The notes: generated by a model from the sequence alone, not told the origin. 64,000 nucleotides of DNA from an uncultured Clostridia bacterium (GCA_944349655.1 CALVNL010000003.1:15252-79251), one strand, 5' to 3'. Shown: positions 10,102-23,001, counted from the first letter of the stretch. Translations and numbers: made by a program.

Positions 10102-10109
10102 CTTGGCGG
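10102..10109. repeat. Left copy of the 8-bp direct repeat CTTGGCGG (putative att core)
   Basis: Identical octamer at 22909-22916. The extended match CTTGGCGGnGAnAn is 11 of 14. Confidence 0.55.
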
Positions 10110-10179
10110 CGAAACCGAATGTCAGTTTGAACTATTCTGCGCTTCTCGATTATTAGTGGTTTCAAAAACCATTGCGTAG

Positions 10180-11718
10180 TTATACCTTGATGCCAGGTGT
10201 TTCTAGGATGGTCGCTTTTTCCGCAGATAGTTTTTTAATCGTGTTAATTCCAGTTTTGATAGCTGTAATTATACTCTTGTATTTGCTTGATTTATCTATT
10301 ATTCTGTGCGTTTCAAATAGCAACAAAATCTCTTTTAAGATAAAAACCAAGCAATGATCTGTTGCCATAATAATATTCACTATGTCACCCCAGGAGCCAC
10401 TATTTGCATACCATAAGTAACCATTTGCATGAGATATCATTTGACTCTCAACATAATCTAAAAGCATTACTCGATCCCAAGAGGTAGAAGATTTTGGATT
10501 CTTGACAGAAAACTTTGATACAAAATCTTTTACTATTCGGGTAAGGCTTTCCGTGGAACCTTTATCGTCAATGGAATACCCTGTTGTTGTACGGAAGTTT
10601 TTCTCAAATATGCTTTGTTCGATTCCATTAGGGTATAATGATTTATAATAGTTGTACGCTTTATCTAACGGGTATTCTTCACCTATGTTTCGTTTGATCT
10701 GCATGCGTTCATGTTCTTCAAGTAGCTTAAAACGCTCCTCTCGGGGGAAGGCACTCAAATAGCATTTTTGGAACGATGCTAGCATATCTAATATGATTTT
10801 CCATTTAGATTTTACTTGTTCGGGCAATCCAAGGAGTTTATCGGAGCAGATCTCTGAGAGTATAAGAGAGAGACTTGTTAATGTATCTGACGTATAATTC
10901 TTTCCAAAAGTCTTTTGAAATTCATTACTTATTTGATTTAGCGAATTACACTCTTGGACAACTAAATCATTGTATTTTCGTGATAAAACCGCGGTATATA
11001 TTGCGGTATAATACACCTCGAAAGTCAACCGTGTTAGAGGAAGAGTTGAGTACTCTTGTGTGATGAGGAGCAGGATGTCAGGAATAGTGGACCAAATTCC
11101 TTCGTTTGAATAGAAATCATTTACAGACGGATGAATTGCTTGGCTATACAGTCCGTAAAGTTTTGCATAATCCTCACCCAAGGTTTCTGCCACCGTTTTA
11201 CGATGGACAACATGGTCTTGGCATAGGAAGGGTAAGTTGCTTTTTACTATGTCATTTATTTCTTTAGCGGTATGACTACTGGATAGTTTTTCGCGGAAAA
11301 AAGTAACTGCGTCATCTTTGTCTTTCAAAAGTTTTTCGGGAATAAGAATTATGTCGGCAATATCTTGAAAATTTTTATAATAATTGTATTCAATCAGGTG
11401 AACTTGCTTTCTTAATAGTTCTATTTGTAGGTCTGAAATCTGCCCTTTTTGATATAGACGTTTTAACGCTAATCCTTCGAGAAAACAGCGTGCAGTAAGC
11501 AACATACCCGGACTACCAATATGTTGCAACAAAACGTCTTTTACGAAGGTTAATGCTTGGGAGGTCAAATAAAAATCTATAATATCGGTAAAAGATTCTG
11601 TCCCAAACAGTTCTTCATCTTCGGAACGCTTCATAAGGGCGTGATTATAAGTGAATAGTCTCCCCCAAAAAGTGTTTAATTCCTCAACAATTATTTGTGT
11701 GACATATTTCATCTGCAT
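10180..11718 (-). CDS. 512-aa predicted all-alpha protein of unknown function, partner of the SIR2 gene
   Basis: Starts 10 nt downstream of the SIR2 stop on the same strand. I find no P-loop or other catalytic motif. Two similar segments occur: YGLYSQAIHPS and YVESQMISHANG. One R-x6-H string is present (REKLSSSH). Confidence 0.7.
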   Translation of the reverse strand: MQMKYVTQIIVEELNTFWGRLFTYNHALMKRSEDEELFGTESFTDIIDFYLTSQALTFVKDVLLQHIGSPGMLLTARCFLEGLALKRLYQKGQISDLQIELLRKQVHLIEYNYYKNFQDIADIILIPEKLLKDKDDAVTFFREKLSSSHTAKEINDIVKSNLPFLCQDHVVHRKTVAETLGEDYAKLYGLYSQAIHPSVNDFYSNEGIWSTIPDILLLITQEYSTLPLTRLTFEVYYTAIYTAVLSRKYNDLVVQECNSLNQISNEFQKTFGKNYTSDTLTSLSLILSEICSDKLLGLPEQVKSKWKIILDMLASFQKCYLSAFPREERFKLLEEHERMQIKRNIGEEYPLDKAYNYYKSLYPNGIEQSIFEKNFRTTTGYSIDDKGSTESLTRIVKDFVSKFSVKNPKSSTSWDRVMLLDYVESQMISHANGYLWYANSGSWGDIVNIIMATDHCLVFILKEILLLFETHRIIDKSSKYKSIITAIKTGINTIKKLSAEKATILETPGIKV

Positions 11719-11728
11719 TGTTTGTAAG

Positions 11729-13075
11729 CTAAATTGCTAAATAATCAAGGAATTGTTTTAGATCAATTACAGTCGGGAACCAAATACACTCTACTCCAAT
11801 TCTCATAAAATGTCTATGAACAATGAATTGATCTTTTGTCGAGAGACCATCTGTCAACATTAGCGCAATATGAGTTTTTCCTTTAATTTGAGTTGTTTCC
11901 AGTATTCTTCGCAAATTAGGATCTGTTAAACTACAGCCAACGAATAGATACGTATTATCCCTATAAAGATAGTTTTGGAGAACTACCGACCAATGATAAG
12001 GATTATTATAAAGCTTATGATACTCAGATTCACTAAAAACAATATAATCTTTATACTGGCAATAATCTTTTGGTAAAATATTAAATGGTAAGTAACCATG
12101 TGTGTGATAGATACTTAATTCATTGTTGGAAAGCATACTTTCATTGAACATAATATTATGTTTCACGCCACAGGCGTCTAATTCTTGCTCTAAAAAATTA
12201 TCATAATTATATGTAATAATATTAAACTTTTTCTCGTTGTGCAATTTAACAACCAGTTTGGCAACATATTTCAAAGTGGAGTCAGGATAATTACTTATTG
12301 GCGGAGTATACTTATCATATAATCCTTTGTATAAACTTTTAATAAAGTCTTTTAAATTTTCTTGAGTAAATTGTCCATTTATAATACTCGTTCCACCTAT
12401 TTTCTTTTGTACTGATATTGAATTGTCAATTACTCCAGCCGATTCTATTTCTTTAAAAAAATCAGAGATAAGGACATCCCATCCTTTAGAACCATAATCA
12501 AGTGATACTCCAGCACCTAGAGATAAAGAAATCATTTTTTTTTGAACTAATTCTTGTAAAAGCAATTTATTATTTTTAATTTTAATATCAAAGTTTAAAA
12601 CTTCATTTAATGAGGCATTCTTTTCTATTTTATCGATTTTTTCGTTATAAAAGCTGTAGTAATCAATAGAATATTCCTTTGCCCATGTTGCTATTGTATT
12701 TTGATCCCAAACGACTATGTTTTCTTCGGCAAATCTATTATTGCTTGAACGACTGCCTTCTTTTAAATATCCATTTACTATGAACAAGCTGATATATTTT
12801 TTCGAATCCAACAGTGGATAGAATTTCATATTCCTGGCATTGTATTTTACTTCAATAATTACAGGCATTTTAAAATCGTCAAATCCTTCCGGTGCGAATC
12901 CATCAAATATACGTATGCCATGTGCAATAGCATTACGAATTTCATTTTTTTGATTAACATACTTAAATATATTTGTGTCTTTGAATTCACTAAAAAACGG
13001 CTTCCCTTGAACGGCACATTTTTGCCTAATTACGGATAAAACAAATTTTTCGAAATCTAATTCTTTATTAATCAT
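11729..13075 (-). CDS. SIR2-family (SIR2_2-type) protein with an N-terminal Mrr-like PD-(D/E)xK domain; putative NAD+-consuming defence effector
   Basis: SIR2_2-like blocks: SLSLGAGVSLDYGSKGW, ITYNYDNFLEQ, IYHTHGYLPF, YLFVGCSLTDPNLRRILE. N-terminal FEKFV..IFDGFAPEG..VIIEVKY resembles the Mrr/PD-(D/E)xK pattern. Confidence 0.75.
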   Translation of the reverse strand: MINKELDFEKFVLSVIRQKCAVQGKPFFSEFKDTNIFKYVNQKNEIRNAIAHGIRIFDGFAPEGFDDFKMPVIIEVKYNARNMKFYPLLDSKKYISLFIVNGYLKEGSRSSNNRFAEENIVVWDQNTIATWAKEYSIDYYSFYNEKIDKIEKNASLNEVLNFDIKIKNNKLLLQELVQKKMISLSLGAGVSLDYGSKGWDVLISDFFKEIESAGVIDNSISVQKKIGGTSIINGQFTQENLKDFIKSLYKGLYDKYTPPISNYPDSTLKYVAKLVVKLHNEKKFNIITYNYDNFLEQELDACGVKHNIMFNESMLSNNELSIYHTHGYLPFNILPKDYCQYKDYIVFSESEYHKLYNNPYHWSVVLQNYLYRDNTYLFVGCSLTDPNLRRILETTQIKGKTHIALMLTDGLSTKDQFIVHRHFMRIGVECIWFPTVIDLKQFLDYLAI

Positions 13076-13111
13076 ATTTTTTCATAAATCCTTGTCAGCA
13101 GTTTTAAAACT

Positions 13112-13140
13112 ATTATAACACTAATTCTGTTTTATTTCAA
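13112..13140 (-). promoter_or_regulatory. Sigma-70-type promoter for the SIR2 operon
   Basis: Minus-strand reading: TTGAAA (13140-13135), 17-nt spacer, TG-extended TATAAT (13117-13112). The ATG lies at 13075. Confidence 0.55.
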
Positions 13141-13189
13141 GATTGTACGTCATTTTTCAAAAAATAATCTCCAAATTTTAGAGAATACC

Positions 13190-13218
13190 TTGAAAATCAA
13201 TAGGAGATATGGTACAAT
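13190..13218 (+). promoter_or_regulatory. Sigma-70-type promoter for the HTH/RM/PHP-ATPase operon
   Basis: TTGAAA (13190-13195), 17-nt spacer, TACAAT (13213-13218). Divergent from the SIR2 promoter. Confidence 0.5.
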
Positions 13219-13256
13219 GAATTAAAATCTTATACCCTTGATGATTGGAGATAATT

Positions 13257-13466
13257 ATGGCAGTTAGTTATAAGAAACTTTGGAAGTTGCTTATCGACAA
13301 AGATATGAAAAAAGAGGATCTGCGCAAGGCAACCGGTATTACTACAACGGCAATGGCTAAACTCGGCAGGAACGAGAACGTTAATACCGAAATACTCGTA
13401 AAGATTTGTGCGGCACTTCAATGTGAACTAAATGACATTGTTGAAATTGTTGGCACAGAACAATGA
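13257..13466 (+). CDS. Small XRE/Cro-type helix-turn-helix regulator (possible RM controller protein)
   Basis: ATG at 13257 with GGAG 6 nt upstream (the track used an upstream TTG). Sequence: MAVSYKKLWKLLIDKDMKKEDLRKATGITTTAMAKLGRNENVNTEILVKICAALQCELNDIVEIV. Confidence 0.75.
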   Translation: MAVSYKKLWKLLIDKDMKKEDLRKATGITTTAMAKLGRNENVNTEILVKICAALQCELNDIVEIVGTEQ

Positions 13467-13536
13467 ATATTGTAAAGAATGAGATTGGTTTAATAATATT
13501 GAAAACCAAAGCGAATAAAGTATTAGGAGAAAAAAG

Positions 13537-15417
13537 ATGAATAGACACGATATTATAGATAGCATTGGAGCTAAATATCATGTTGGGAACACCGAGAATG
13601 GTGAATTTAGTTATGTTCAGGCATTAAAGTCTGTAGGTAAAGACATAAAAGATTATCAAAAAGCGGCGACTGGAACGAAGCACCAGTTTTTGGATATCCG
13701 ATTTACCAATGATCGCTTGGTAATCTTGGTTGAATGCAAGAGCAAATTCAGCCGTTGGGATAAGGCAAAGATACAAGGACAACTCCAAGACTATGTAAGA
13801 TTTGAAAAAGCTTACTCCGATAAAAAAATTGTTGCTATTTTGGCAGAAACCGAAGGCAACGATGTTTGGGTTTGGTATGGTCAATCGGTTATTATTGACG
13901 ACGAGCATAAAGTGTCAACAGAAACCGTTATTCGCACGTTTGGAGAGTATGAAAACTTGTGTTTTGGCAAGGTAAACGATAAGATAAAAATCGTCGATTC
14001 TATCAAGCAATTAAACGAAAAATTACATTCGGATGGTATTAATGAGAAATTGCGTAGTCAATTTGTCGGGACGTGTCTTCTTGCCTTAAAAAACGGCTTG
14101 GTTTACAAAGATGTAAAAGCGACATTGGATCCTAAAACAGGAAAAGAACTTTCTCCTGAAAAAGTTGTCTTAAGAAACATTAAAGATATTCTCGAAGGTC
14201 TGCTAACAAAGAGTGGGACGGTCAATATAAACAAAGCGAGTAAATTGACGATACTTAATAATAAAGTTCTCGGCGACCAAGACGTTGAAAGTCTTACTTA
14301 TGAAGAATTAAAAGAGATTTTAGAATATATCGATACAAATGTCGTTCCATATATTAACGATAAAAGTACTGCAGGGCAAGATTTATTAAACCTCTTCTTT
14401 ACAACGTTCAACAAATATGTTGGTAAATCTGATAAAAATCAGGCTTTTACTCCTGACCATATTTGCGACTTTATGAGCAAAGCCGTTGGCGTAAACAAGA
14501 ATTCTCGTGTTTTAGATCCTTGTTGCGGGAGTGGAGCTTTCTTGGTTAGAGCAATGACCGATGCAATGGATGATTGTGATACAGAAGACGAAAGAGAAGA
14601 TGTAAAGAAAGGGCAGATTTTTGGCATTGAATATGAAGACGGCGCCTTTGGACTGTCCTCTACAAATATGTTGATTCACGGTGATGGAAACTCAAACGTC
14701 ATACAAGCATCTATGTTCGATAAGGCAAAGTGGATTTCGGATAATAACATTAATGTTGTTTTGATGAATCCGCCTTACAATGCGACTAAAAAATGTTGTA
14801 ATCCCGAATATACAAAGAATTGGAGTGCAAACCAAAAAGAAGATCCGTCAAAGGGTTTGCATTTTGTTGAATTTGTTGCAAAACATGTTTCGAAACCTTG
14901 TAAGATTGCAGTCCTTCTCCCTATGCAAGCTGCTATCGGGAATAGTGGAGAAACAGCAGATTTTAAAAAGAAAATGTTAGACAATTATACGCTAGAAGCT
15001 GTTTTCTCGTTGCCTAATGATATGTTCTATCCTGGTGCTTCGGCAATTGCATGCTGCATGATATTCGATTTATCACAGAAGCATGAAAAAGCGAACAGAG
15101 AAACGTTTTTTGGATATTATAAAGATGATAAATTTATAAAGCGCAAGGGGCTTGGGCGTGTTGAAAAAACAGATGCAGATGGGAACAGCCTGTGGGTAAA
15201 AACGGAAGACCTGTGGTTGAATTTGTATCGAAATAAAAAGGAAGTGCCGGGACTGTCCGTTATGCACAAGGTGTCTTGGAAAGACGAATGGCTCGCTGAA
15301 GCTTATATGGAAACGGATTATTCCACCCTAAGCCAGCAAGATTTCCAAAATACCATCAATGAGTATTTGTCGTATTTAGTTAAAGAAGGTGGAATCTATG
15401 AATCTAAAATTAAGTAG
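13537..15417 (+). CDS. BcgI A-like Type IIB restriction-modification subunit (N-terminal PD-ExK endonuclease fused to a gamma-class N6-adenine methyltransferase)
   Basis: D53-x12-E66-x-K68 (FLDIRFTNDRLVILVECK, nt 13693-13740). SAM motif VLDPCCGSGAFLV precedes the catalytic VVLMNPPYN. 626 aa; AGGAGA RBS. Confidence 0.75.
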   Translation: MNRHDIIDSIGAKYHVGNTENGEFSYVQALKSVGKDIKDYQKAATGTKHQFLDIRFTNDRLVILVECKSKFSRWDKAKIQGQLQDYVRFEKAYSDKKIVAILAETEGNDVWVWYGQSVIIDDEHKVSTETVIRTFGEYENLCFGKVNDKIKIVDSIKQLNEKLHSDGINEKLRSQFVGTCLLALKNGLVYKDVKATLDPKTGKELSPEKVVLRNIKDILEGLLTKSGTVNINKASKLTILNNKVLGDQDVESLTYEELKEILEYIDTNVVPYINDKSTAGQDLLNLFFTTFNKYVGKSDKNQAFTPDHICDFMSKAVGVNKNSRVLDPCCGSGAFLVRAMTDAMDDCDTEDEREDVKKGQIFGIEYEDGAFGLSSTNMLIHGDGNSNVIQASMFDKAKWISDNNINVVLMNPPYNATKKCCNPEYTKNWSANQKEDPSKGLHFVEFVAKHVSKPCKIAVLLPMQAAIGNSGETADFKKKMLDNYTLEAVFSLPNDMFYPGASAIACCMIFDLSQKHEKANRETFFGYYKDDKFIKRKGLGRVEKTDADGNSLWVKTEDLWLNLYRNKKEVPGLSVMHKVSWKDEWLAEAYMETDYSTLSQQDFQNTINEYLSYLVKEGGIYESKIK

Positions 15418-16555
15418 TTGGCAATATTTTGATTACATAAGAATTTTTGATATCAAGAAAGGGTTTTATAACAAAAAGCCTGATCCATCTGGTTCTGGAA
15501 AAATTAATTTTATAGGCGCGACTGATCATAATAATGGCGTTACAGAAAGGTATACCCTAGATGAGATAGAAAACGCTTCTAGAACAGGTGATTTGCCAAA
15601 CGAATCATTAAGCAGAAAAGTTTTTCCGGCTCATGCGGTATGCGTAACAAACAATGGCTCCGTAGGTTACGCCTATTATCAAGAAGAATCTTTTACATGT
15701 AGTCACGATGTAAATCCATTATACTTGAAAGACGGGGAGTTTAATAAGTATACAGGCCTTTTTGTCGCAACTGTAATCATGCATGATAAATATCGTTGGG
15801 GATATGGTAGAAAATGGAGGCCTGAAAGAATGGTCAAATCTAAGATAAAACTCCCGATAGTGCAAGATGAAGATGGAAACCCTTTAATAGACGGGAGTAA
15901 AAAGTATTCAGATGATGGCTATTTGCCGGATTGGGCATTTATGGAAAAATACATGATGAACTTGTCTGTTAATCCTGTTTCTACTAATAATAAATCACCT
16001 GTATGCTCTTTTAATACAAAAGATTGGAAAGAGTTTCAGTTCGGCAAACTTATAGAAAATAATAATATCTATAAAGCAAAAGCTTATAGCAAAATAGAAC
16101 TAGAAACGAAAAATATTGCTGAAAAAGGGTATATTCATTTTGTTTCTCGCACGGAAGAGAATAATAGTATCGACTGTTATGTGATGAAAAGCGATTTTTC
16201 TGATATTGAAGAAGGGAATGCGATTACTATTGGAGATACCACATCCACTATAGCATATCAAAGCGAACTCTTTGTAAACGGAGATCACATCATTGTCATT
16301 CGTGCAGACTGGCTAAACAAGTATACTGGTATGTTTATTGTAAGTTTATTAAGAAAAGAGCGTTATCGTTATTCATATGGTAGAGCATTTTTAATGGATT
16401 CTATCAAGAATACAAAATTACATCTTCCTGTAAAAAAGCAGGATGGCAAACCTATTATTGATGATAGCCATACTTTTTCCGATGAAGGCTACTTGCCGGA
16501 TTGGGAATGGATGGAGACTTATATAAAGTCTTTGCCATACAGTGATAGAATTTAA
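15398..16555 (+). CDS. BcgI B / HsdS-like bipartite DNA-specificity subunit
   Basis: Start moved to the ATG at 15398 (AAGGTGG RBS), overlapping the upstream stop. There are two tandem halves, each ending in a conserved block: KIKLPIVQDEDGNPLIDGSKKYSDDGYLPDWAFMEKYM and KLHLPVKKQDGKPIIDDSHTFSDEGYLPDWEWMETYI. Confidence 0.65.
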   Translation: MNLKLSSWQYFDYIRIFDIKKGFYNKKPDPSGSGKINFIGATDHNNGVTERYTLDEIENASRTGDLPNESLSRKVFPAHAVCVTNNGSVGYAYYQEESFTCSHDVNPLYLKDGEFNKYTGLFVATVIMHDKYRWGYGRKWRPERMVKSKIKLPIVQDEDGNPLIDGSKKYSDDGYLPDWAFMEKYMMNLSVNPVSTNNKSPVCSFNTKDWKEFQFGKLIENNNIYKAKAYSKIELETKNIAEKGYIHFVSRTEENNSIDCYVMKSDFSDIEEGNAITIGDTTSTIAYQSELFVNGDHIIVIRADWLNKYTGMFIVSLLRKERYRYSYGRAFLMDSIKNTKLHLPVKKQDGKPIIDDSHTFSDEGYLPDWEWMETYIKSLPYSDRI

Positions 16556-16600
16556 CGTTCGTTCAATGATTCTTAAAATACACAAGCAAAGGAGTTGCTG

Positions 16601-19417
16601 ATGGAATATACTAGAGGATCAGAGTGGAGAAGATGGGATTTCCATCTACATACCCCTGACACAAAAAAGAATGATCAGTTCCAAGCGAATGGCAAAGGAA
16701 AATGGGAACTGTTTTATGAAAATATAGCTAATTACATTGGAGATAAAACCAATCCTCAAAAAACAATTGCAGCAGTCGGAATTACCGATTATTTTTCAGT
16801 TGAAAATTATAGAAAAGTAAAATCAGATGGAATATTGGCACGACATATTGACTTTATTTTTCCCAATATAGAACTTAGGTGTCTCCCCCTAAAAGACGGA
16901 GTAAAAATGAATGTTCATTTACTGATTAATCCATCTTTTATCGATAAAGTAGACACTATAATTCTTAGCAATTTAAAGTATTGCTCAATGGATACGGAGT
17001 ATTGTGCTCGTAAAGATGATTTAATAAGATTTGGAAAAGATCTGGATGCATCTTTGGATGATGAAATGGCCTATAAAAAAGGTGTTGAAAATTTTAATAT
17101 CAATTTTGACGATTTAATAAAAATATTAAAAAATCATCCAGAATGTAAAGATAATGTACTTATCTTAATGCCCAATAGGAGTACTGATGGTGCATCTGCA
17201 GTTGGAAATCCTACAAGCCCGTCAGTGGATCTATGTGATTTATGCGAATATAGAAGAGAATTATATAGAACATCGGATATTATTTTATCTGCGAATCCTT
17301 CGGACATAAATTTCTTTTTAGGTAAACGAGATAAGAAACCTGAAAAGATAATGCCTTGCGTTTGGGGGTGTGATGCTCATACAAACGAAGCTATCTTTGA
17401 ACCGCTTAATAGCGAAAAACAACCGACTAAAAGGTATTGCTGGATTAAAGCAGACCCGACATGGGAAGGATTAAAGCAGGTACTATTTGAACCAGAAGAG
17501 CGGGTTCGCATTCAAGAACTATGCCCAGCGGATAGAATTGACAATTATCGAATTATTGATCAAATTGTTATCGAGGATGATACGGTGCCCCATAGATTTT
17601 CGAATGATGCTATTCCCATCAATGAAAATCTTACTTGCATTATAGGTTTAAAGTCAACAGGTAAATCTATATTGCTGCAGAACATTGCACAGGCAATTGA
17701 TCCTACGGAAGTAACGACAAGATTTAATACAGTTTATGCAGGCAAGAGAATTCCTTTTGAGTTTCCCATAAAAGTATATTGGAAAGATGGTACCGTCTCA
17801 TCAAAAGATTCTAAAGATGATAAGAAAATAGTTTATATAGCACAGTCATATCTTAACAAGTTGATGGATGATTGTGCAGAGAAAACAGAAATTGATTCAA
17901 TAATTGAAGGTATAATCACTCAGAACGAAGATTTCTGCATTTTAAAAAAGAGTTTTGATGCAGAATTGATAGATATTCAAAAACAAATAGAATCTAAGAT
18001 TTTAGATTTAATATACAAACAAAGAGAGTTAATTGGACAAGTAGCTGTTATTAAAGATATTGGTAATCGAGAATCGATTGAAAAGAACATCGAACTGTTG
18101 CGCGAAAAAAAAGAATCAATAGCAAAATCTTTAAATCTATCAGCAGAAGATATTGCTAAATACGATAATGCAATTAATAAAAAGCAAGAACTGGAAGAAA
18201 ATTTGATTGTTTTACAGACAGACAGGAATACTATCGAAAACTCACAGTTTAGTGTTTATGTATGTGGTGAAACAAAAATAGTTGATGCTGAAATAACCAA
18301 TATGTACAATAATGCTCTTTCGTTAATAGAAAGTGAAGCATCGAAAAGATGGAATGAGAAAAAGCAAAGTATTGTTAAGAAAATAGACGAAAAATTATCC
18401 ACAATTAATAATGAATTAAAATCTACGATTGATGTCATTGAAGCCTTAAAACCAATGATGGATAGTAATGAAGAGATTAAGAGAATTGAAAATAATTTGA
18501 GGGCAGAAGAAACAAATTTACGAAAGATAAATGCGGAATTTGAAACACTAACTAATATTCAAAAGTCCATAAACTCTATTATAGAGAATATTCTATCTCT
18601 TTCGACATCACGTGAAAACAAATATGATTTATTCGCAGAGCAATTCAAAACGATTCATTTCAAAGATACGAATGAAAACTTTAAAATCATTGCAATAAAA
18701 AGAAGGCGTAGAGTTTACTTCAGAGACACAATAACAAAGATCTTTACACAAAATGCTTTAAAAACAATTCATAATGGTGTTTTTAGAAATTTTGACGATC
18801 CCTCTTTTATTTTAGAAAATGAGTATGACGAGGCTTGTAAAAAAGATTATATAAATGCGATTCTTGAAAACGACACACAAAAAGTTTTGCTAAGTAAATA
18901 TGAAAAAGATCGTGCATTGCAAGAACTATTTGGCGATTTTGATAATATTATTTATACGGTTGAAATGGATGGTGATCTTATCGAGAGTATGTCTCCCGGT
19001 AAAAAGGCATTAGTTCTGTTGAAACTACTTATAAGTCACGATGAGTCAAAATGTCCAATTCTGTTAGATCAGCCCGAAGACGATTTAGATAACCTCTCCA
19101 TAGTATCCGATTTAGTTGCCTTTATAAAAGAACGAAAAAGGGATCGACAAATAGTTTTGGTGACACATAACGCAAATTTGGTCCTAGGCTGTGATGCTGA
19201 AGAAGTAATTGTGGCAAATCAGCAAATAGACAATAATTCACTTACACATAATAAATCATTTAGATTCGAGTATCGCTCTGGATCTATAGAAAATATAACC
19301 ACAACGGATTCAGATACTTTCCTAGGATCAAGAGGCATTCAACAACATATTTGTAATATTCTAGAAGGCGGAAAAGAAGCATTTATTGCAAGGAAAAATA
19401 AATATACCAATTTGTAA
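16601..19417 (+). CDS. Fused PHP-domain phosphoesterase / Rad50-SMC-like coiled-coil ABC ATPase (Ppl/TrlF-like defence protein)
   Basis: Start at the ATG at 16601 (AAGGAG 6 nt upstream). PHP motifs: FHLHTP (H15, H17), GITDYF, NIELR, NVHLLI, GCDAH. Walker A: GLKSTGKS (aa 349-356). A ~300-aa heptad-rich insert follows. Signature-like MSPGKKAL, Walker B ILLDQPEDDLD, H-loop VTHNANL. Confidence 0.75.
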   Translation: MEYTRGSEWRRWDFHLHTPDTKKNDQFQANGKGKWELFYENIANYIGDKTNPQKTIAAVGITDYFSVENYRKVKSDGILARHIDFIFPNIELRCLPLKDGVKMNVHLLINPSFIDKVDTIILSNLKYCSMDTEYCARKDDLIRFGKDLDASLDDEMAYKKGVENFNINFDDLIKILKNHPECKDNVLILMPNRSTDGASAVGNPTSPSVDLCDLCEYRRELYRTSDIILSANPSDINFFLGKRDKKPEKIMPCVWGCDAHTNEAIFEPLNSEKQPTKRYCWIKADPTWEGLKQVLFEPEERVRIQELCPADRIDNYRIIDQIVIEDDTVPHRFSNDAIPINENLTCIIGLKSTGKSILLQNIAQAIDPTEVTTRFNTVYAGKRIPFEFPIKVYWKDGTVSSKDSKDDKKIVYIAQSYLNKLMDDCAEKTEIDSIIEGIITQNEDFCILKKSFDAELIDIQKQIESKILDLIYKQRELIGQVAVIKDIGNRESIEKNIELLREKKESIAKSLNLSAEDIAKYDNAINKKQELEENLIVLQTDRNTIENSQFSVYVCGETKIVDAEITNMYNNALSLIESEASKRWNEKKQSIVKKIDEKLSTINNELKSTIDVIEALKPMMDSNEEIKRIENNLRAEETNLRKINAEFETLTNIQKSINSIIENILSLSTSRENKYDLFAEQFKTIHFKDTNENFKIIAIKRRRRVYFRDTITKIFTQNALKTIHNGVFRNFDDPSFILENEYDEACKKDYINAILENDTQKVLLSKYEKDRALQELFGDFDNIIYTVEMDGDLIESMSPGKKALVLLKLLISHDESKCPILLDQPEDDLDNLSIVSDLVAFIKERKRDRQIVLVTHNANLVLGCDAEEVIVANQQIDNNSLTHNKSFRFEYRSGSIENITTTDSDTFLGSRGIQQHICNILEGGKEAFIARKNKYTNL

Positions 19418-19792
19418 CATGACAACCACGCAAGTACTAAAATCGGGTTTCCAGATTGTTCGGCGCAACGGCGTGGAGGCTTCAAAGTAGCGACTTCTTA
19501 CTATTTCCATAACTCGCTTAGACCGTCGGAAATAGCCAATAAAACGGAGCAAAATAACAAATCGAAAAATTCATTATAAATATGGCTGAAATTGCTGGGT
19601 ACATTAAGGTATAATGAAGATTTTAAAGGTTAGCGCATCACTAAAACAAAAAGAAAATGACCGCCGAAACATCGAGCAAATACCTGTATTATTGTCCTTT
19701 AATAAAACAAGAAGTGCAGCTACACTCTCAAAAAGTTTTAATCATAAAGCGAGTTTTTACACTATATTTATAATAAATCAAGTAATAAATCA

Positions 19793-19818
19793 AGCCGAGA
19801 ATTTTTCTCGGCTTTTTC
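19793..19818 (+). terminator. Rho-independent terminator inside the island's non-coding stretch
   Basis: AGCCGAGA (19793-19800), loop ATTTT, TCTCGGCT (19806-19813), then a T-run. Confidence 0.6.
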
Positions 19819-19889
19819 CATTGTTATTTGCAAGAAAGTTTAATTATCTTTATTTTTTTCTTAATAACCTTGTAAAATCCATTGTCAAA

Positions 19890-20380
19890 TGTCCTATATA
19901 AGTGAGGGGCATTTTTCTTTTGCGAAAAATACGAAGTTTTTGCCCTCTACTGTCCATATGTAGTGAGAAAATCTTTTTCAAAATAAAAAAAGTTTCGTGC
20001 AAACCATTTACTTTCGTGCCGGAAGTTTCCAATTATAGTAGAGGGATATTTTTCAGGAAAGTACGAAGTTTTTACTCTCTGTTGTCCATATATAGTGAGG
20101 AGATTTTCTTCTGTAAGAAAAAAGTTTCCCGTAAACCATTAACTTTTGTACCGGAAGTGTCCAATTATAGTAGAGAAATAATAAATTACCGCGAATTTCT
20201 AAAAACACCCCGCCAAAAGGTATGGTAAGTGTCCAATTATAGTAGGAGAATTTTTTGAAAAAGTTCAGTTAAATACCCTAACAAAGAGATGAAAACTTTC
20301 CAATATAAGTAGAGATGTTTTCAAGAACTTACGAAAAACACCCCCGCAAACAGGCAAGCTAATGTCCATATATAGTGAAC
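19890..20380 (+). repeat. Array of eight ~18-bp direct iteron-like repeats (consensus TGTCCAWWTATAGTRRAG) containing a 132-bp tandem duplication
   Basis: Copies start at 19890, 19951, 20026, 20083, 20158, 20230, 20297 and 20363, all in the same orientation. Two subtypes occur: TGTCCATATATAGTGAG and TGTCCAATTATAGTAGAG. Segments 19931-20044 and 20063-20176 align without gaps, 93 of 114 identical. Confidence 0.85.
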
Positions 20381-20640
20381 GGTAAAGGAGATAACGGATC
20401 ATGAGTTACAAACAAGTGTACCCGCCTTAGCAGGCAGAAAACGGAAAGCAAAAGCCCGAAAAATAAATTGGAAAACGGGTACTTTTTACAAGCAGGATAA
20501 GGTTTTTGCAATCTATTTCAAAAACGGAACTCGAAACAAGTCGGAAACCGACTTTTCGAAAAGGACAACATTTGCTCGTATCCACAAGAAGAAATCGCCC
20601 TGCTTTTACTAAAAATATCGGCGGACTAACGCAAAAGCAC

Positions 20641-20696
20641 TTGACTTACGCACACAAAGCGTGTAAAATATAATCGTCGTATAGATACGATTATAT
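20641..20696 (+). promoter_or_regulatory. Promoter with an overlapping palindromic operator upstream of the small island gene and recombinase
   Basis: TTGACT (20641-20646), 17-nt spacer, TAAAAT (20664-20669). Perfect 10-bp inverted repeat ATATAATCGT (20668-20677) / ACGATTATAT (20687-20696). Confidence 0.55.
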
Positions 20697-20716
20697 ATTC
20701 ACGGAGGAATGAAAAA

Positions 20717-21007
20717 ATGGCAAAGTCAAGAAAGGAAAAAGACAAAAGATACGAAGAACGGCACAAGGAAGAACGCAAAGCCAAAAACGTTATATGGGGA
20801 ACGAGCGTTCCGAGAAAGACGGCGGAAGAAATAAACGAGTTTCTGAAAAAGCACGGCTATACGAAGGTGGAACTTATACAAGCTGGCTACGAAGAACTGT
20901 TAGCCCGACACGATACCGCCTTTGCAAAATTAAAGGACGGCTACGACGATTTTTTCGAGAGCGAACTTACGAAATTCGCAGAAGAAAGAAACAAAAACAA
21001 ATCATAA
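20717..21007 (+). CDS. Small charged protein (96 aa), unknown function; possible DNA-binding accessory factor of the island
   Basis: GGAGG RBS 9 nt upstream. N-terminal K/R/E-rich segment MAKSRKEKDKRYEERHKEERKAKN. The function is inferred only. Confidence 0.55.
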   Translation: MAKSRKEKDKRYEERHKEERKAKNVIWGTSVPRKTAEEINEFLKKHGYTKVELIQAGYEELLARHDTAFAKLKDGYDDFFESELTKFAEERNKNKS

Positions 21008-21130
21008 TCCGTAAGACGAGATACTCTCGCCTTGCGGAAATCTGAGATAAGGAGGATTTTGCGGTAATGGTGAGAGAACATTACAGCCATCAGGAAAGAG
21101 AACATAGTATCCGCGCAATAAGTATGAACG

Positions 21131-21328
21131 TTGAAGCGGATACAAGAAAACACCGTTGAGGTCAATCTGTCAACGGGACACAAAGAAAAAGGCAGATTAA
21201 ATCTGCCGAAAGAAAGAATACAAACAAGCGCAAAAATTTTAGCCGATATTTTACTCGACTATGCGAGAAACGGCGGTAATATGGACGTTTTAACGCCCGA
21301 GAGCGTATTCGGCAGGAGAAAGCAATGA
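21131..21328 (+). CDS. Hypothetical small ORF overlapping the recombinase start (ATGA)
   Basis: TTG start, no clear RBS. Support comes only from the 4-nt overlap with the recombinase ATG. Confidence 0.25.
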   Translation: MKRIQENTVEVNLSTGHKEKGRLNLPKERIQTSAKILADILLDYARNGGNMDVLTPESVFGRRKQ

Positions 21329-22932
21329 AAAAGCGAGTAGTTATATATGCAAGGTTCAGTTCGCACAGTCAGACGGAACAGTCTATCGAAGGACAACTTC
21401 GGGAATGCTACGAGTATGCAAAAAGACAGGACCTTCTCGTTGTAGCCGAATACATTGACCGTGCGCTTACGGGTACTACGGACAAACGCCCCGAATTTTT
21501 AAGAATGATCGACGACAGTAAGAAAAAGACTTTCGACTATGTTCTTGTTTACCAACTTGATCGCTTTGCCCGTAACCGTTACGACAGCGCGAATTACAAA
21601 GCAAAGTTAAAGAAAAACGGCGTGCGTGTTCTATCTGCAAAGGAAAACATAACGGAAGACGCAAGCGGAATTTTAATCGAGGGCGTGCTGGAAAGTATGG
21701 CGGAGTATTACTCCGCCGAACTTTCGCAAAAGGTAAAACGCGGAATACGGGAAAGTTACGAAAAAGGTTACTTTATCGGCGGATACGGATTATTCGGCTA
21801 TGACATCGTGGACAAAAAATGGACGATAAACAGTTACGAAGCGGATATTGTAAGAGATATTTTTACAAGATACAAAAACGGCGAAAAGGCGAAAGAAATT
21901 ATTGCAAGGCTGAACGGACAAGGCATTAAGACGAAAGCCGGTTCGTCGTTCAATATGAACAGTCTTGCAAGGATAATCCGCAACGAAAAATACATCGGGA
22001 AAGTAACTTCACACGGCACGGTTTACACTAATGTCATACCGCCTATCGTGGACGAAGAACTTTTTTATGAATGCAACGTCATTATGGACAAGCATAAACA
22101 TAAACCGCGCGATAGCAAGAGCGAACAGCCATATATTTTAAGCGGAAAATTGTTTTGCGGATTTTGCGGTAGTCTGATGACCGCCGAAACGGGAACAAGC
22201 CATACAGGTAAACTTCATCACTATTACAAGTGTTTCGGAAGAAAACGCAACAAACACAGTTGTAAAAAGGCAAATTACAGACAGCAAGACCTTGAAGATC
22301 TGGTCTTCGGCACGACGGTTAAATACGTTCTGCAACCCGACGTAATTCAAACCGTTGCCGAACAGGTCGTTTCAAAATTCAATTCGGAGATAACAAAGAC
22401 CGCAACGCTTGAAAATCTCGAAAACGAGTTGAAAGCCAAAGAAAAAGCGATATACGCACTGCTTGCCGCCATAGAACAAGGCATAGTGACTAAATCCACC
22501 AAAGAACGACTGATTTCTCTCGAAACGCAAAAAGAGGAATTAGAGAGCAAAATTTTACTTGAAAAGGCTCGGCAGATAAAACCGCTCGAAGTGGACAAAG
22601 TAAAAGCGTTTTTAACCTATTTTGCCCGTAAAAAGTATGAAAACGGGCAAGAAAAAAACGAGTTTTTCAACTCGTTCATAAACCGTGTTATTTTGTATGA
22701 CGACAAAATTTTAATCTTTTACAACACAGACGATAATCACCCGACGGTAATCAAGAGAAAAAATACGGAAGAATTGGTTTCGCAACTTAACGACATAGAG
22801 AGCAACGGCAAAACCGCAATAAATGACTGCCTGAACGCAACGGGAAACAACAGCCCAAGCGTACAAAATGAAAACTCGCTTGAACCTCAAGGGTTCAAAC
22901 GAGTTTCACTTGGCGGAGAGAGTGGGATTTGA
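21325..22932 (+). CDS. Large serine recombinase (resolvase/invertase N-domain, recombinase domain, zinc ribbon, coiled coil)
   Basis: VVIYARFSSHSQTEQSIEGQ and LDRFARN (serine-recombinase catalytic domain). Cys cluster CGFCGSLM..YYKCFGRKRNKHSC. 535 aa. The 3' end overlaps the tRNA by 22 nt. Confidence 0.9.
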   Translation: MKKRVVIYARFSSHSQTEQSIEGQLRECYEYAKRQDLLVVAEYIDRALTGTTDKRPEFLRMIDDSKKKTFDYVLVYQLDRFARNRYDSANYKAKLKKNGVRVLSAKENITEDASGILIEGVLESMAEYYSAELSQKVKRGIRESYEKGYFIGGYGLFGYDIVDKKWTINSYEADIVRDIFTRYKNGEKAKEIIARLNGQGIKTKAGSSFNMNSLARIIRNEKYIGKVTSHGTVYTNVIPPIVDEELFYECNVIMDKHKHKPRDSKSEQPYILSGKLFCGFCGSLMTAETGTSHTGKLHHYYKCFGRKRNKHSCKKANYRQQDLEDLVFGTTVKYVLQPDVIQTVAEQVVSKFNSEITKTATLENLENELKAKEKAIYALLAAIEQGIVTKSTKERLISLETQKEELESKILLEKARQIKPLEVDKVKAFLTYFARKKYENGQEKNEFFNSFINRVILYDDKILIFYNTDDNHPTVIKRKNTEELVSQLNDIESNGKTAINDCLNATGNNSPSVQNENSLEPQGFKRVSLGGESGI

Positions 22933-22936
22933 ACCC
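22891..22936. repeat. Perfect 9-bp inverted repeat GGGTTCAAA / TTTGAACCC spanning 46 bp, centred on the tRNA CCA end (att-site-like)
   Basis: Arms at 22891-22899 and 22928-22936; the right arm is the tRNA T-arm. A further TTGAACC copy lies at 22880-22886. Confidence 0.6.
22909..22916. repeat. Right copy of the 8-bp direct repeat CTTGGCGG (putative att core)
   Basis: Identical to 10102-10109. Covers the tRNA 3'-terminal CCGCCA plus 2 nt. Confidence 0.55.
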
Positions 22937-23001
22937 ACGGTACGCTTTTGGCGTACACACGATTTCCAATCGTGCTCCTTCGACCCCTCGGACATCTCTC
23001 C
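22911..23001 (-). tRNA. tRNA-Ser (anticodon GGA), class II with long variable arm, CCA encoded
   Basis: Hand fold of the minus-strand sequence. Acceptor GGAGAGA/TCTCTCC; D stem TCC/GGA; anticodon stem CACGA/TCGTG with loop TTGGAAA. Variable arm GTACGC/GCGTAC; T stem GTGGG/CCCAC with loop TTCAAAT; discriminator G then CCA. 91 nt. Confidence 0.9.

What the first reader, a model, noticed from the sequence alone, without database searches (positions are those of the whole stretch)
16556..19417. Single-polypeptide PHP nuclease plus Rad50/SMC-like ATPase wired into the RM operon
A complete set of PHP phosphoesterase motifs (HxH, D, E, H, DAH; aa 1-260) is fused to an ABC-type ATPase. Its Walker A (aa 349-356) and its signature, Walker B and H-loop (last ~110 aa) are separated by a ~300-aa coiled-coil-like insert. 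Functionally this resembles an SbcC/Rad50 ATPase with a PHP domain replacing the SbcD/Mre11 nuclease. PHP plus ATPase matches what I recall as the single-gene Ppl system (Gao et al. 2020) and the NCBI TrlF family AAA-like ATPase name. Here the gene lies 45 nt after the specificity subunit gene, with no terminator between. That raises the possibility of functional coupling to the Type IIB RM, for example as a second nuclease acting on RM-generated ends, or as a back-up when the RM is inhibited. This coupling has not, to my knowledge, been characterised.
Basis: partly seen in the sequence, partly recalled or inferred. Interest (0 to 1): 0.7.

Follow-up and report, generated by a model that had tools for sequence, protein, structure and literature searches.

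The report
PHP nuclease–SMC ATPase tailing restriction operon
This gene encodes a single protein that joins a PHP-type nuclease to a Rad50/SMC-like ATPase; it belongs to the named TrlF family, which includes the anti-phage protein Ppl, it is the last gene of a restriction-modification operon on a small mobile defence island, and relatives in many bacteria sit just after restriction genes of every type.

Summary
Window 16601-19417 (+) encodes a 938-aa protein with an intact PHP motif set (H15/H17, D63, E91, H106, D258-A-H260). It also has an ABC ATPase split by a roughly 240-aa coiled coil.

It scores 515.6 bits, full length, on NCBIfam TrlF_fam_ATP (cut-off 350). It fails the Ppl-specific model (78 against 1000), but Ppl itself scores 477 on the TrlF model, so Ppl is a subclade of this family. 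AlphaFold models (pLDDT about 91) match SMC, Rad50 and JetC heads, and PHP phosphoesterases.

The gene starts 45 nt after the S gene of a BcgI-like RM operon (HTH, RM, S, TrlF). No terminator precedes the hairpin at 19792-19814. The operon lies on a 12.8-kb serine-recombinase island at tRNA-Ser.

In 73 species-level loci, the gene immediately upstream of the TrlF homologue is an RM gene in 27 (types I, II, IIS, IIG, III, IV). Only 4 of 70 downstream genes are. Most tightly coupled upstream genes are RM genes.

TrlF also occurs alone, and an 83%-identical RM exists without it. The best reading is an autonomous Ppl-like, DNA-end-directed nuclease, repeatedly recruited as a terminal RM accessory. 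The synergy itself is inferred, not shown.

The parts
10102..22940 (.). 12.8-kb integrative defence island that carries the operon. It has low G+C (31-37% against 46-50% in the flanks). It is bounded on the right by tRNA-Ser.
   Evidence: blastn finds the same segment at 93-99.9% identity in four other genomic contexts, L103 and L105-L107. Composition profile.
13257..13466 (+). 69-aa HTH_26 regulator at the head of the operon. It is either a controller (C-protein) or a TrlR-like regulator.
   Evidence: Pfam HTH_26 on the called gene. Homologues head RM-TrlF operons in L028 and L061, and one lies directly before TrlF in L059. A promoter-like site lies at 13190-13218.
13537..15417 (+). 626-aa fused restriction-modification subunit. 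It has an N-terminal PD-(D/E)xK-like motif (D53...E66-x-K68) and a gamma-class N6-adenine methyltransferase. It is BcgI-like (type IIB/IIG).
   Evidence: Pfam N6_Mtase 6e-33 and Eco57I. PADLOC REase_MTase_IIG 9.5e-55 over residues 59-617. The nuclease motif was read directly from the sequence.
15398..16555 (+). Specificity (S) subunit with two target-recognition domains. It overlaps the 3' end of the RM gene by 20 nt.
   Evidence: Pfam Methylase_S with 2 stretches. PADLOC Specificity_II 1.7e-20. Called gene in L001.
16556..16600 (+). 45-nt spacer with the ribosome-binding site AAGGAG at 16589-16594. No terminator. One weak promoter-like match at 16552-16579.
   Evidence: Sequence. Promoter and terminator scan.
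16601..17536 (+). TrlF aa 1-312: PHP phosphoesterase (nuclease) domain. HxH is at 16643-16651 and DAH at 17372-17380.
   Evidence: Conserved motifs. Domain model with pLDDT 91.2 whose top PDB matches are all PHP folds.
17537..17926 (+). TrlF aa 313-442: N-terminal lobe of the ABC ATPase head. Walker A is at 17645-17668 and the Q-loop is Q415.
   Evidence: Alignment. The profile matches Rad50, AriA and PtuA P-loop regions.
17927..18646 (+). TrlF aa 443-682: antiparallel coiled-coil arm. The apex is near aa 547-562. It has no CxxC zinc hook and no hinge domain.
   Evidence: Model secondary structure. Foldseek matches to SMC heads with coiled coils. Sequence read directly.
18647..19417 (+). TrlF aa 683-938 plus the stop codon: C-terminal lobe of the ATPase head. 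The signature MSPGKK is at 18989-19009, Walker B and D-loop LLDQPEDDLD at 19055-19090, and the H-loop at H856. It ends in a family-specific tail, ILEGGxxAFxxRxxKY.
   Evidence: Partial matches to SMC_N and AAA_21 and to Ppl and PDC-M49A.
19792..19814 (+). Intrinsic-terminator-like hairpin (10-bp stem followed by a T-run). It is the first strong terminator after the operon.
   Evidence: Terminator scan.
21325..22932 (+). Large serine recombinase of the island. Its 3' end overlaps tRNA-Ser(GGA) at 22911-23001 (-).
   Evidence: Pfam Resolvase, Recombinase and Zn_ribbon_recom. tRNA detected.

Best explanation
What it is. The gene encodes a TrlF-family protein, a distant homologue of the single-gene anti-phage protein Ppl. 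One polypeptide carries an N-terminal PHP metal-dependent nuclease and an SMC/Rad50-like ABC ATPase head whose two lobes are separated by a short coiled-coil arm. It is the terminal, most likely co-transcribed, gene of an operon of four genes: an HTH regulator, a BcgI-like RM subunit, an S subunit, and TrlF. The operon sits on a 12.8-kb serine-recombinase island, which also carries a SIR2 gene pair.

Proposed mechanism (inferred):
- The protein dimerises through its nucleotide-bound heads.
- Nucleotide acts more as a regulatory ligand than as fuel, because the residue after the Walker B aspartate is an invariant glutamine.
- The protein engages free DNA ends, and the PHP domain degrades DNA exonucleolytically from them, as reported for Ppl.
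- In this operon the restriction enzyme supplies those ends on unmodified invading DNA. TrlF would then turn repairable restriction cuts into irreversible degradation.

Basis for the coupling. What TrlF shares with its many unrelated RM partners (types I, II, IIS, IIG/IIB, III, IV) is their product, a DNA break, and not any common protein surface. TrlF can also work alone. The coupling is therefore facultative synergy, not obligate.

Shown here (computationally): architecture, conserved catalytic residues, fold, operon layout, mobility of the island, and recurrent RM linkage.
Inferred: defence function of this member, end-directed exonuclease activity, co-transcription, and synergy with restriction.
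For: Family and architecture.

Ppl belongs to the same family (477 bits on the TrlF model; hhalign 99.8%). Ppl restricts T7 as a single gene (PMC11482910). A review describes it as an ssDNA 3'-5' exonuclease that is inhibited by bound NTPs and needs 3'-OH ends (PMC12904381).

Operon: 45-nt gap, RBS, and no terminator until 19792.

Survey of 73 species-level loci:
- An RM gene lies immediately upstream in 27 loci, covering six RM classes.
- The RM fraction by position is 7, 18, 24 and 34% at -4 to -1, against 6, 3, 10 and 7% at +1 to +4. The 34% at -1 is the count after correction for mislabelled entries.
- -1 against +1 gives p=1.8e-5.
- About 22 of 27-29 same-strand upstream genes within 60 nt are RM genes.
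- TrlF lies inside type I operons, between the M or S gene and the R gene, in L060, L087 and L089.

Closely related TrlFs (61-73% identity) follow unrelated RM types. Relatives at 65-70% identity to the window protein follow AlwI, a C5 methyltransferase or an integrase.

A type IV enzyme with no methyltransferase is also a partner (L078; L009).

An 83%-identical RM carries a related ABC ATPase, PDC-M49A, in the same 3' slot.
Against: - No experiment exists on this protein or on any RM-linked TrlF.
- TrlF is solitary on many enterobacterial conjugative plasmids and next to integrases. Ppl works alone, so RM is not required.
- The RM family occurs without TrlF.
- One island copy has a split TrlF (162 + 786 aa) beside an intact RM (L105).
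- A weak promoter-like site lies in the spacer, so independent transcription is not excluded.
- In Photorhabdus, no phenotype was assigned to TrlF (PMC7554251).
- The survey covers only the 80 best of at least 419 hits. It used a home-made ORF caller. Type II endonucleases were looked for only at position -1, which inflates the asymmetry. With helicase, methyltransferase and S classes only, the counts are 16/73 against 4/70, p=0.007.
- The Ppl mechanism is taken from a review sentence, not from primary data that I read.
Confidence: 0.55

Rival explanations
1. Autonomous hitch-hiker. TrlF is a self-sufficient, Ppl-like single-gene defence nuclease with its own trigger, for example nucleotide depletion plus phage-made 3'-OH ends. 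It sits at the 3' end of RM operons only because that position gives expression and co-transfer within defence islands. It has no mechanistic interplay with restriction.
For: - Solitary occurrences on plasmids and next to integrases.
- Ppl protects as a single gene.
- Upstream partners are very diverse. They include non-RM defence genes (BrxA, PD-Lambda-3_B, PDC-S18, AlbA_2) and recombinases.
- The RM family occurs without TrlF.
Against: - The strong asymmetry between upstream and downstream, and gaps of 0-60 nt, are more than island co-location predicts.
- TrlF is inserted inside type I operons between S and R.
- A related ATPase occupies the same slot behind a sister RM.
Confidence: 0.28
2. 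Guard or back-up, as in PrrC and PARIS. TrlF is held inactive while the RM enzyme is functional. It is unleashed when a phage anti-restriction factor, such as a DNA mimic, disables the RM enzyme. It then degrades DNA as an abortive or second-line response.
For: - Precedents exist: PrrC is silenced by a linked type I enzyme and activated by a phage anti-restriction peptide, and RloC is a Rad50-like ATPase-nuclease fusion (PMC2610378, PMC3458546).
- AriA, which binds the DNA mimic Ocr, is among the structural and profile matches.
- TrlF occupies the PrrC-like position inside type I operons in L060, L087 and L089.
Against: - Partners include many simple type II endonucleases, a type IV enzyme and a lone methyltransferase. 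These share no surface that a guard could monitor.
- Closely related TrlFs switch RM partner type.
- TrlF occurs without any RM.
Confidence: 0.1
3. Host-side end processing. TrlF is an SbcCD-like repair factor. It cleans RM-inflicted or protein-blocked breaks on the host chromosome and so limits self-restriction damage. Alternatively, it is the temperature-restriction factor suggested by the name of the Photorhabdus locus.
For: - It is architecturally analogous to Mre11-Rad50 and SbcCD.
- One clade lies directly after an SbcD/SbcC-like pair.
- RmuC or DUF2130 genes follow TrlF in five loci.
- The family name comes from a temperature-restriction locus.
Against: - Its distribution is patchy and borne on mobile elements and plasmids, unlike a housekeeping repair gene.
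- The temperature phenotype mapped to trlG, not trlF.
- No trlG-like gene is present here.
- The characterised relative Ppl is an anti-phage gene.
Confidence: 0.06

Closest known systems
Ppl (Gao et al. 2020 single-gene anti-phage system; NCBIfam NF042955)
   Same: Same architecture: an N-terminal PHP domain, then an ABC ATPase with a coiled-coil insert. It is homologous: hhalign gives 99.8% probability and E 1.9e-29 over about 600 columns, and Ppl scores 477 bits on the TrlF model. It shares the SPGxK signature, the LLDQPEDDLD Walker B/D-loop and the C-terminal EGGxxAF tail.
   Different: Only about 19% identity. The window protein scores 78 bits on the Ppl model (cut-off 1000), and only over its last ~140 aa. 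Ppl is a solitary gene on enterobacterial conjugative plasmids. Here the gene ends an RM operon in a gut Clostridia island.
TrlF of the Photorhabdus laumondii temperature-restriction locus (trlR-trlF-trlG; PMC7554251)
   Same: It gives its name to the NCBIfam family, whose cut-off this protein passes. A small HTH regulator heads the operon in both. In Yersinia ruckeri pYR3, RM methyltransferase genes lie between trlR and trlF, which is the same layout as here.
   Different: No TrlG partner (AlbA_2 + HATPase_c_4) is present in the window. Only 1 of 73 surveyed loci has an AlbA_2 neighbour (L090). No function was shown for TrlF in that study.
SbcCD / Mre11-Rad50
   Same: Both combine an ABC ATPase head, split by an antiparallel coiled coil, with a metal-dependent nuclease that acts at DNA ends. 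Rad50 heads are significant matches by fold and by profile.
   Different: The nuclease is a PHP fold, not a calcineurin-like Mre11/SbcD fold. Both activities are on one chain. The arm is short (about 100 residues per strand), with no zinc hook. The Walker B aspartate is followed by Q, not E. It is not a conserved housekeeping gene.
PrrC and RloC (RM-linked ABC-ATPase/nuclease fusions)
   Same: Each is a single polypeptide combining an ABC-type (in RloC, Rad50-like) ATPase with a nuclease. Each is genetically linked to RM loci. PrrC lies inside a type I operon, as TrlF does in L060, L087 and L089.
   Different: Their effector is a C-terminal anticodon RNase that acts on tRNA. PrrC is tied to one type I family through protein-protein silencing. 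TrlF has an N-terminal PHP domain that presumably acts on DNA, and it follows RM systems of all types.
PDC-M49A (PADLOC candidate) and other SMC-like defence ATPases (AriA of PARIS, LmuB of Lamassu, JetC of Wadjet)
   Same: All are related ABC ATPase heads with coiled coils. PDC-M49A shares the C-terminal lobe and tail with TrlF (hhalign 86.6%). It occupies the slot after an 83%-identical RM and S pair.
   Different: None of them carries a PHP domain. They rely on separate effector proteins. PDC-M49A keeps the canonical LLDEPE Walker B.

Membership tests
TrlF family AAA-like ATPase (NCBIfam NF045780) | Full-length match to the family model at or above its curated cut-off of 350 bits | tested here: met
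   515.6 bits, E 4e-154, residues 5-935 on model positions 1-943 of 944.
TrlF family AAA-like ATPase (NCBIfam NF045780) | N-terminal PHP fold with metal-binding His/Asp/Glu residues intact | tested here: met
   H15, H17, D63, E91, H106, D258 and H260 are present and conserved. The N-domain model matches only PHP folds at the top of the PDB search. Pfam PHP itself gives no hit.
TrlF family AAA-like ATPase (NCBIfam NF045780) | ABC ATPase head (Walker A, Q-loop, signature, Walker B, H-loop) split by a coiled coil | tested here: met
   Motifs. The model and Foldseek match SMC, Rad50 and JetC. Note: Q824 replaces the catalytic Glu in all 123 members.
Ppl anti-phage protein (NCBIfam NF042955; PADLOC Ppl) | Score at or above the equivalog cut-off of 1000 bits over the full length | tested here: not met
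   78.2 bits, residues 793-932 only. PADLOC Ppl gives 66 bits, C-terminal only. Genuine Ppl scores 1330.
Ppl anti-phage protein (NCBIfam NF042955; PADLOC Ppl) | Protects against phage as a single gene; 3'-5' exonuclease regulated by NTPs | not testable with these tools
   Known for E. coli Ppl only from the literature.
TRL operon (trlR-trlF-trlG) | Adjacent TrlG (AlbA_2 + HATPase_c_4) partner | tested here: not met
   Neighbouring ORFs have no such domains. The stretch after the gene holds a terminator and a repeat array.
TRL operon (trlR-trlF-trlG) | Small HTH regulator at the head of the operon | tested here: inconclusive
   A 69-aa HTH_26 gene lies at 13257-13466. Homology to Photorhabdus TrlR was not tested because no sequence was at hand. 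It may equally be an RM controller protein.
SbcCD / Mre11-Rad50 | Calcineurin-like (Mre11/SbcD) nuclease partner and a CxxC zinc hook at the coiled-coil apex | tested here: not met
   The nuclease is a PHP fold. The apex (aa 547-562) has a single, unconserved Cys.
Type IIB (BcgI-like) restriction-modification system (upstream genes) | Fused endonuclease and gamma-class N6-methyltransferase subunit, plus a separate S subunit with two target-recognition domains | tested here: met
   Pfam N6_Mtase, Eco57I and Methylase_S (2 stretches). PADLOC REase_MTase_IIG and Specificity_II. The D53/E66/K68 motif was read directly.
Type IIB (BcgI-like) restriction-modification system (upstream genes) | Cleavage on both sides of a bipartite site | not testable with these tools
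   Requires enzymology.
PrrC/RloC-type RM-linked anticodon nucleases | C-terminal HEPN-like anticodon nuclease domain | tested here: not met
   No such domain in Pfam, NCBIfam or PADLOC scans. The C-terminus is the ATPase lobe.

The most novel reading that the evidence does not exclude
TrlF-family proteins, and the related PHP-less PDC-M49A ATPases, could be a general, type-independent 'restriction amplifier'. This would be a plug-in module recruited to the 3' end, or the interior, of RM operons of any class. It would recognise the DNA ends those enzymes create and destroy the cut DNA processively. It would add a second, shared tier to restriction, analogous to what RecBCD does in E. coli or what Cas3 does after Cascade.
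Probability: 0.3. Interest if true: 0.75.

Novelty: new variant of a known kind. Interest (0 to 1): 0.55.

Why it matters
The protein family is already named, and one member, Ppl, is a validated anti-phage gene. The protein itself is therefore not new.

Two things appear not to be described in the literature I could search. One is how often this family is wired directly behind restriction genes of every class. The other is that close relatives swap RM partners.

If the link is functional, many RM systems would have an unrecognised third activity that makes restriction irreversible. That would affect several things:
- how RM efficiency and phage escape are modelled;
- how defence-system annotation tools score such operons (PADLOC models give only a partial hit to this gene);
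- how gut Clostridia mobile islands package layered immunity.

The operon offers a clean test system, because the RM-only, TrlF-only and combined constructs all have natural counterparts.

Tried and rejected
- Pfam gave no PHP call and only sub-threshold SMC_N and AAA_21 matches. PHP identity had to come from motifs and predicted structure.
- A single-sequence search of PDB sequences found nothing useful. The profile search found SMC, Rad50, AriA and PtuA but no solved family member.
- I looked for a TrlG-like or other partner gene downstream. ORFs 19614-19901 and 19902-20228 were rejected as genes: they run through the terminator hairpin and a repeat array, and they have no family hits.
- I considered that TrlF might replace the restriction subunit (HsdR or REase) of an M+S system. 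This was rejected. The partner systems keep their own HsdR or REase. The RM subunit here has its own nuclease motif. An 83%-identical RM exists without TrlF.
- Single-linkage clustering of TrlF sequences was uninformative, so nearest-neighbour comparison was used instead.
- The first position table miscounted three serine recombinases and one SNF2 helicase as RM at -1. This was corrected from 29 to 25, and later raised to 27 by PADLOC hits.
- Literature searches for 'TrlF', and for PHP plus RM plus defence islands, found no paper describing the RM linkage. The library is incomplete, so absence is weak evidence.
Full report
THE GENE

The ORF at 16595-19417 most likely starts at ATG 16601. AAGGAG lies 7 nt upstream, and the S gene stops 45 nt before at 16555. 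The product is 938 aa.

- PHP residues: H15-x-H17, D63, E91, H106 and D258-A-H260.
- Walker A: GLKSTGKS, aa 349-356.
- Q-loop: Q415.
- Signature: MSPGKK, aa 797-802.
- Walker B and D-loop: PILLDQPEDDLD, aa 819-830.
- H-loop: H856.

In an alignment of 123 homologues at 28-70% identity, H17, E91, R93, D258, H260, G354, K355, Q415, D823, Q824, P825 and H856 are invariant. H15, D63 and H106 are at least 90% conserved.

The residue after the Walker B aspartate, normally the catalytic glutamate of ABC ATPases, is an invariant glutamine here. The same is true in Ppl. In canonical ABC ATPases an E-to-Q change blocks hydrolysis but allows nucleotide-dependent dimerisation (established knowledge). This suggests nucleotide sensing rather than motor activity, although E826 might compensate.

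FAMILY

NCBIfam places the protein in the TrlF family: NF045780, 515.6 bits against a cut-off of 350, full length. The Ppl equivalog model gives only 78 bits against a cut-off of 1000, confined to the last ~140 aa. PADLOC's Ppl model is likewise partial. Pfam gives only sub-threshold SMC_N and AAA_21 matches and no PHP call.

I fetched a genuine Ppl, WP_015059139, from a Klebsiella IncFIA plasmid.
- It scores 1330 bits on the Ppl model and also 477 bits, full length, on the TrlF model.
- A profile of this family aligns to it with 99.8% probability and E 1.9e-29.

Ppl is therefore a subclade of the broader TrlF family, and the window protein is a distant member of the same family. The family is large: 1,390 clusters at 50% identity with E<=1e-30, nearly all full length.

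The name comes from the Photorhabdus temperature-restriction locus trlR-trlF-trlG. There the phenotype mapped to trlG, and no role was found for trlF (PMC7554251).

STRUCTURE

The full-length AlphaFold2 model has pLDDT 90.7 and pTM 0.78. It shows an N-terminal alpha/beta domain, a head domain, and long antiparallel helices at aa 443-682.
- Foldseek against the PDB matches SMC heads with coiled coil (5xei, E 8.5e-10), JetC, MukB, cohesin, Rad50, Lamassu LmuB, AriA, RecN and RecF. It also matches the PHP phosphoesterase 3o0f.
- A separate model of aa 1-312 (pLDDT 91.2, pTM 0.91) has PHP folds as all of its 27 best PDB matches. These are TrpH-like phosphoesterases, RNase AM, and the PHP domains of Pol III alpha and PolC.
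- A sequence profile against the PDB finds SMC5/6, Rad50, AriA and PtuA, but no solved member of the family.
- The apex of the arm has no conserved CxxC, so there is no zinc hook.

LOCAL CONTEXT

Upstream, on the same strand, lie three genes.
- A 69-aa HTH_26 gene at 13257-13466.
- A 626-aa protein at 13537-15417. It carries N6_Mtase and Eco57I domains, a full-length PADLOC REase_MTase_IIG match, and a D53...E66-x-K68 motif.
- A two-TRD S subunit at 15398-16555, overlapping the RM gene by 20 nt.

This is the BcgI-like (type IIB/IIG) layout. The cleavage pattern cannot be tested here.

There is a promoter-like site at 13190-13218. No terminator-like site occurs before the strong hairpin at 19792-19814. 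A weak promoter-like match in the 45-nt spacer means independent transcription cannot be excluded.

The identical RM protein occurs on many contigs. Every context read carries the same block, in this order: a 512-aa gene, SIR2, HTH, RM, S, TrlF, a 96-aa gene, and a serine recombinase. The block is inserted between different flanking genes. blastn delimits it to window 10102-22940, ending inside tRNA-Ser(GGA). The operon is therefore cargo of a 12.8-kb mobile defence island with low G+C.

IS THE RM LINKAGE MORE THAN LOCAL?

I fetched 80 loci, one genome per species, from GTDB representatives, using family patterns. I called ORFs and annotated the gene immediately upstream of TrlF with Pfam and PADLOC. 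I classified methyltransferases, S subunits and R or Res helicases at all positions with local phmmer and hmmsearch.

Of 73 usable loci, the upstream neighbour is an RM gene in 27.
- Type I HsdR: 3 loci.
- Type I S: 5 loci.
- Type I HsdM: 1 locus.
- Type II endonucleases: 10 loci (AlwI, EcoO109I, Eco47II, HinP1I, CfrBI and two PADLOC REase_II).
- Type II methyltransferases: 3 loci.
- Type IIG/ISP fusions: 2 loci.
- Type III Res: 2 loci.
- Type IV GmrSD-HNH: 1 locus.

Other upstream neighbours are BrxA, PD-Lambda-3_B (2), PDC-S18, an AlbA_2 protein, an HTH, and six recombinases.

The fraction of RM genes by position is 7, 18, 24 and 34% at -4 to -1, but 6, 3, 10 and 7% at +1 to +4. The 34% at -1 is the count after correction for mislabelled entries.
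- -1 against +1 is 25/73 against 4/70, p=1.8e-5.
- Endonucleases were searched only at -1. Using only classes searched symmetrically gives 16/73 against 4/70, p=0.007.

Among same-strand upstream genes within 60 nt, about 22 of 27-29 are RM genes. In L060, L087 and L089, TrlF lies inside a type I operon, between the M or S gene and the R gene. This is the position classically occupied by prrC.

Closely related TrlFs follow unrelated RM types.
- 69-73% identity: CfrBI, a type III Res and a type IV enzyme in one group, and type I M and type IIG in another.
- 65-70% identity to the window protein: relatives follow AlwI, a C5 methyltransferase, or an integrase.

The window's HTH has homologues heading the RM-TrlF operons of L028 and L061, and another directly before TrlF in L059. 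This echoes trlR-[RM M genes]-trlF in Yersinia pYR3.

EVIDENCE AGAINST OBLIGATE COUPLING

- TrlF is solitary next to an integrase in the 70%-identical clade, and on enterobacterial conjugative plasmids.
- Ppl protects as a single gene.
- An 83%-identical RM and S pair, seen on 293 contigs, sits on an integrase/relaxase element without TrlF.
- One island copy has TrlF split into 162 + 786 aa beside an intact RM (L105).

In that sister element, the slot after the S gene holds a 670-aa PDC-M49A protein (E 5e-195). This is an ABC ATPase distantly related to the TrlF C-terminal lobe and tail (hhalign 86.6%), but without a PHP domain and with a canonical LLDEPE.

INTERPRETATION

The partners share no common protein. 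What they share is that they make breaks in foreign DNA; this holds even for the type IV enzymes, which have no methyltransferase. A recent review describes Ppl as an ssDNA 3'-5' exonuclease that requires 3'-OH ends and is held off by bound NTPs (PMC12904381).

The most economical model is that TrlF is an autonomous, end-directed PHP exonuclease gated by its SMC-like, nucleotide-binding head. In RM operons it would exploit the ends made by restriction to make cleavage irreversible.

I rate this model at about 0.55. The rivals are:
- pure hitch-hiking without functional interplay, about 0.28;
- a PrrC/PARIS-like guard of RM integrity, about 0.1;
- host-side repair, about 0.06.

NOVELTY

The protein is a member of a named family with a validated relative, so it is not categorically new. 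I did not find the systematic placement of this family as the tail gene of RM operons of all classes described in the searchable literature. I class the finding as a new variant of a known kind, of moderate interest, with a clear experimental path.

Noticed in passing
window 19880-20380: An array of at least 8 copies of a ~17-nt motif, (T)GTCCA[AT][AT]TATAGT[AG][GA]G. It includes a 131-nt tandem duplication (19918-20048 and 20050-20180, 79% identical). It lies between the operon terminator and the recombinase module. Copy number differs between copies of the island (L103, L106, L107). It may consist of iterons or recombinase/Rep binding sites.
   Followed up: partly
window 10102-22940: The operon is cargo of a 12.8-kb island. 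The island occurs at 93-99.9% identity in at least four other genomic contexts. It ends inside tRNA-Ser(GGA) at 22911-23001 (-), which overlaps the 3' end of the serine recombinase gene (21325-22932).
   Followed up: yes
window 10180-13075 (- strand): A divergently transcribed pair on the same island: a SIR2_2 protein (448 aa, weak ThsA-like PADLOC hits) and a 512-aa protein with no hit in Pfam or PADLOC and only a marginal, far sub-threshold KaiC match (E 0.008) in NCBIfam. It may be a second, uncharacterised defence module.
   Followed up: partly
L108:10212-12224 (also L109-L113): An 83%-identical RM and S pair sits on an integrase/Prim-Pol/relaxase element. It is followed by a 670-aa PDC-M49A ABC ATPase and two small ORFs (105 and 163 aa) instead of TrlF. 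The ATPase shares the TrlF C-terminal lobe and tail but has no PHP domain.
   Followed up: partly
L105:11065-13882: In one copy of the island, TrlF is split into 162-aa and 786-aa ORFs while the RM and S genes are intact. This may be natural loss of TrlF.
   Followed up: no
L074, L075, L086 (TrlF genes): TrlF proteins are 96-98% identical in MAGs assigned to three phyla: Melioribacteraceae, Patescibacteria and Planctomycetia. Two of them share the same CfrBI-type RM upstream. This indicates either very recent horizontal transfer or binning contamination.
   Followed up: no
L052, L056, L071, L083 (10.8-16 kb) and L027, L047, L059, L061, L094: In Flavobacteriia loci, TrlF is followed within ~20-40 nt by a 445-aa protein, an MksE-like protein and a 1070-aa MukB-like protein, which looks Wadjet-like. 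In five other loci a DUF2130 or RmuC gene follows TrlF: directly in L047, L059 and L061, and two or three genes further on in L027 and L094.
   Followed up: partly
L023 (GTDB representative, 100% identical over residues 507-938) and P0020 (517 aa): The species-representative MAG and one protein cluster hold only the C-terminal part of the identical protein. I did not determine whether this is a truncated allele or an assembly artefact.
   Followed up: no
window 19055-19066 (aa 819-822 plus D823-Q824): The Walker B aspartate is followed by glutamine instead of the catalytic glutamate. This holds in all 123 aligned family members and in Ppl. It implies weak or regulatory nucleotide hydrolysis.
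   Followed up: partly
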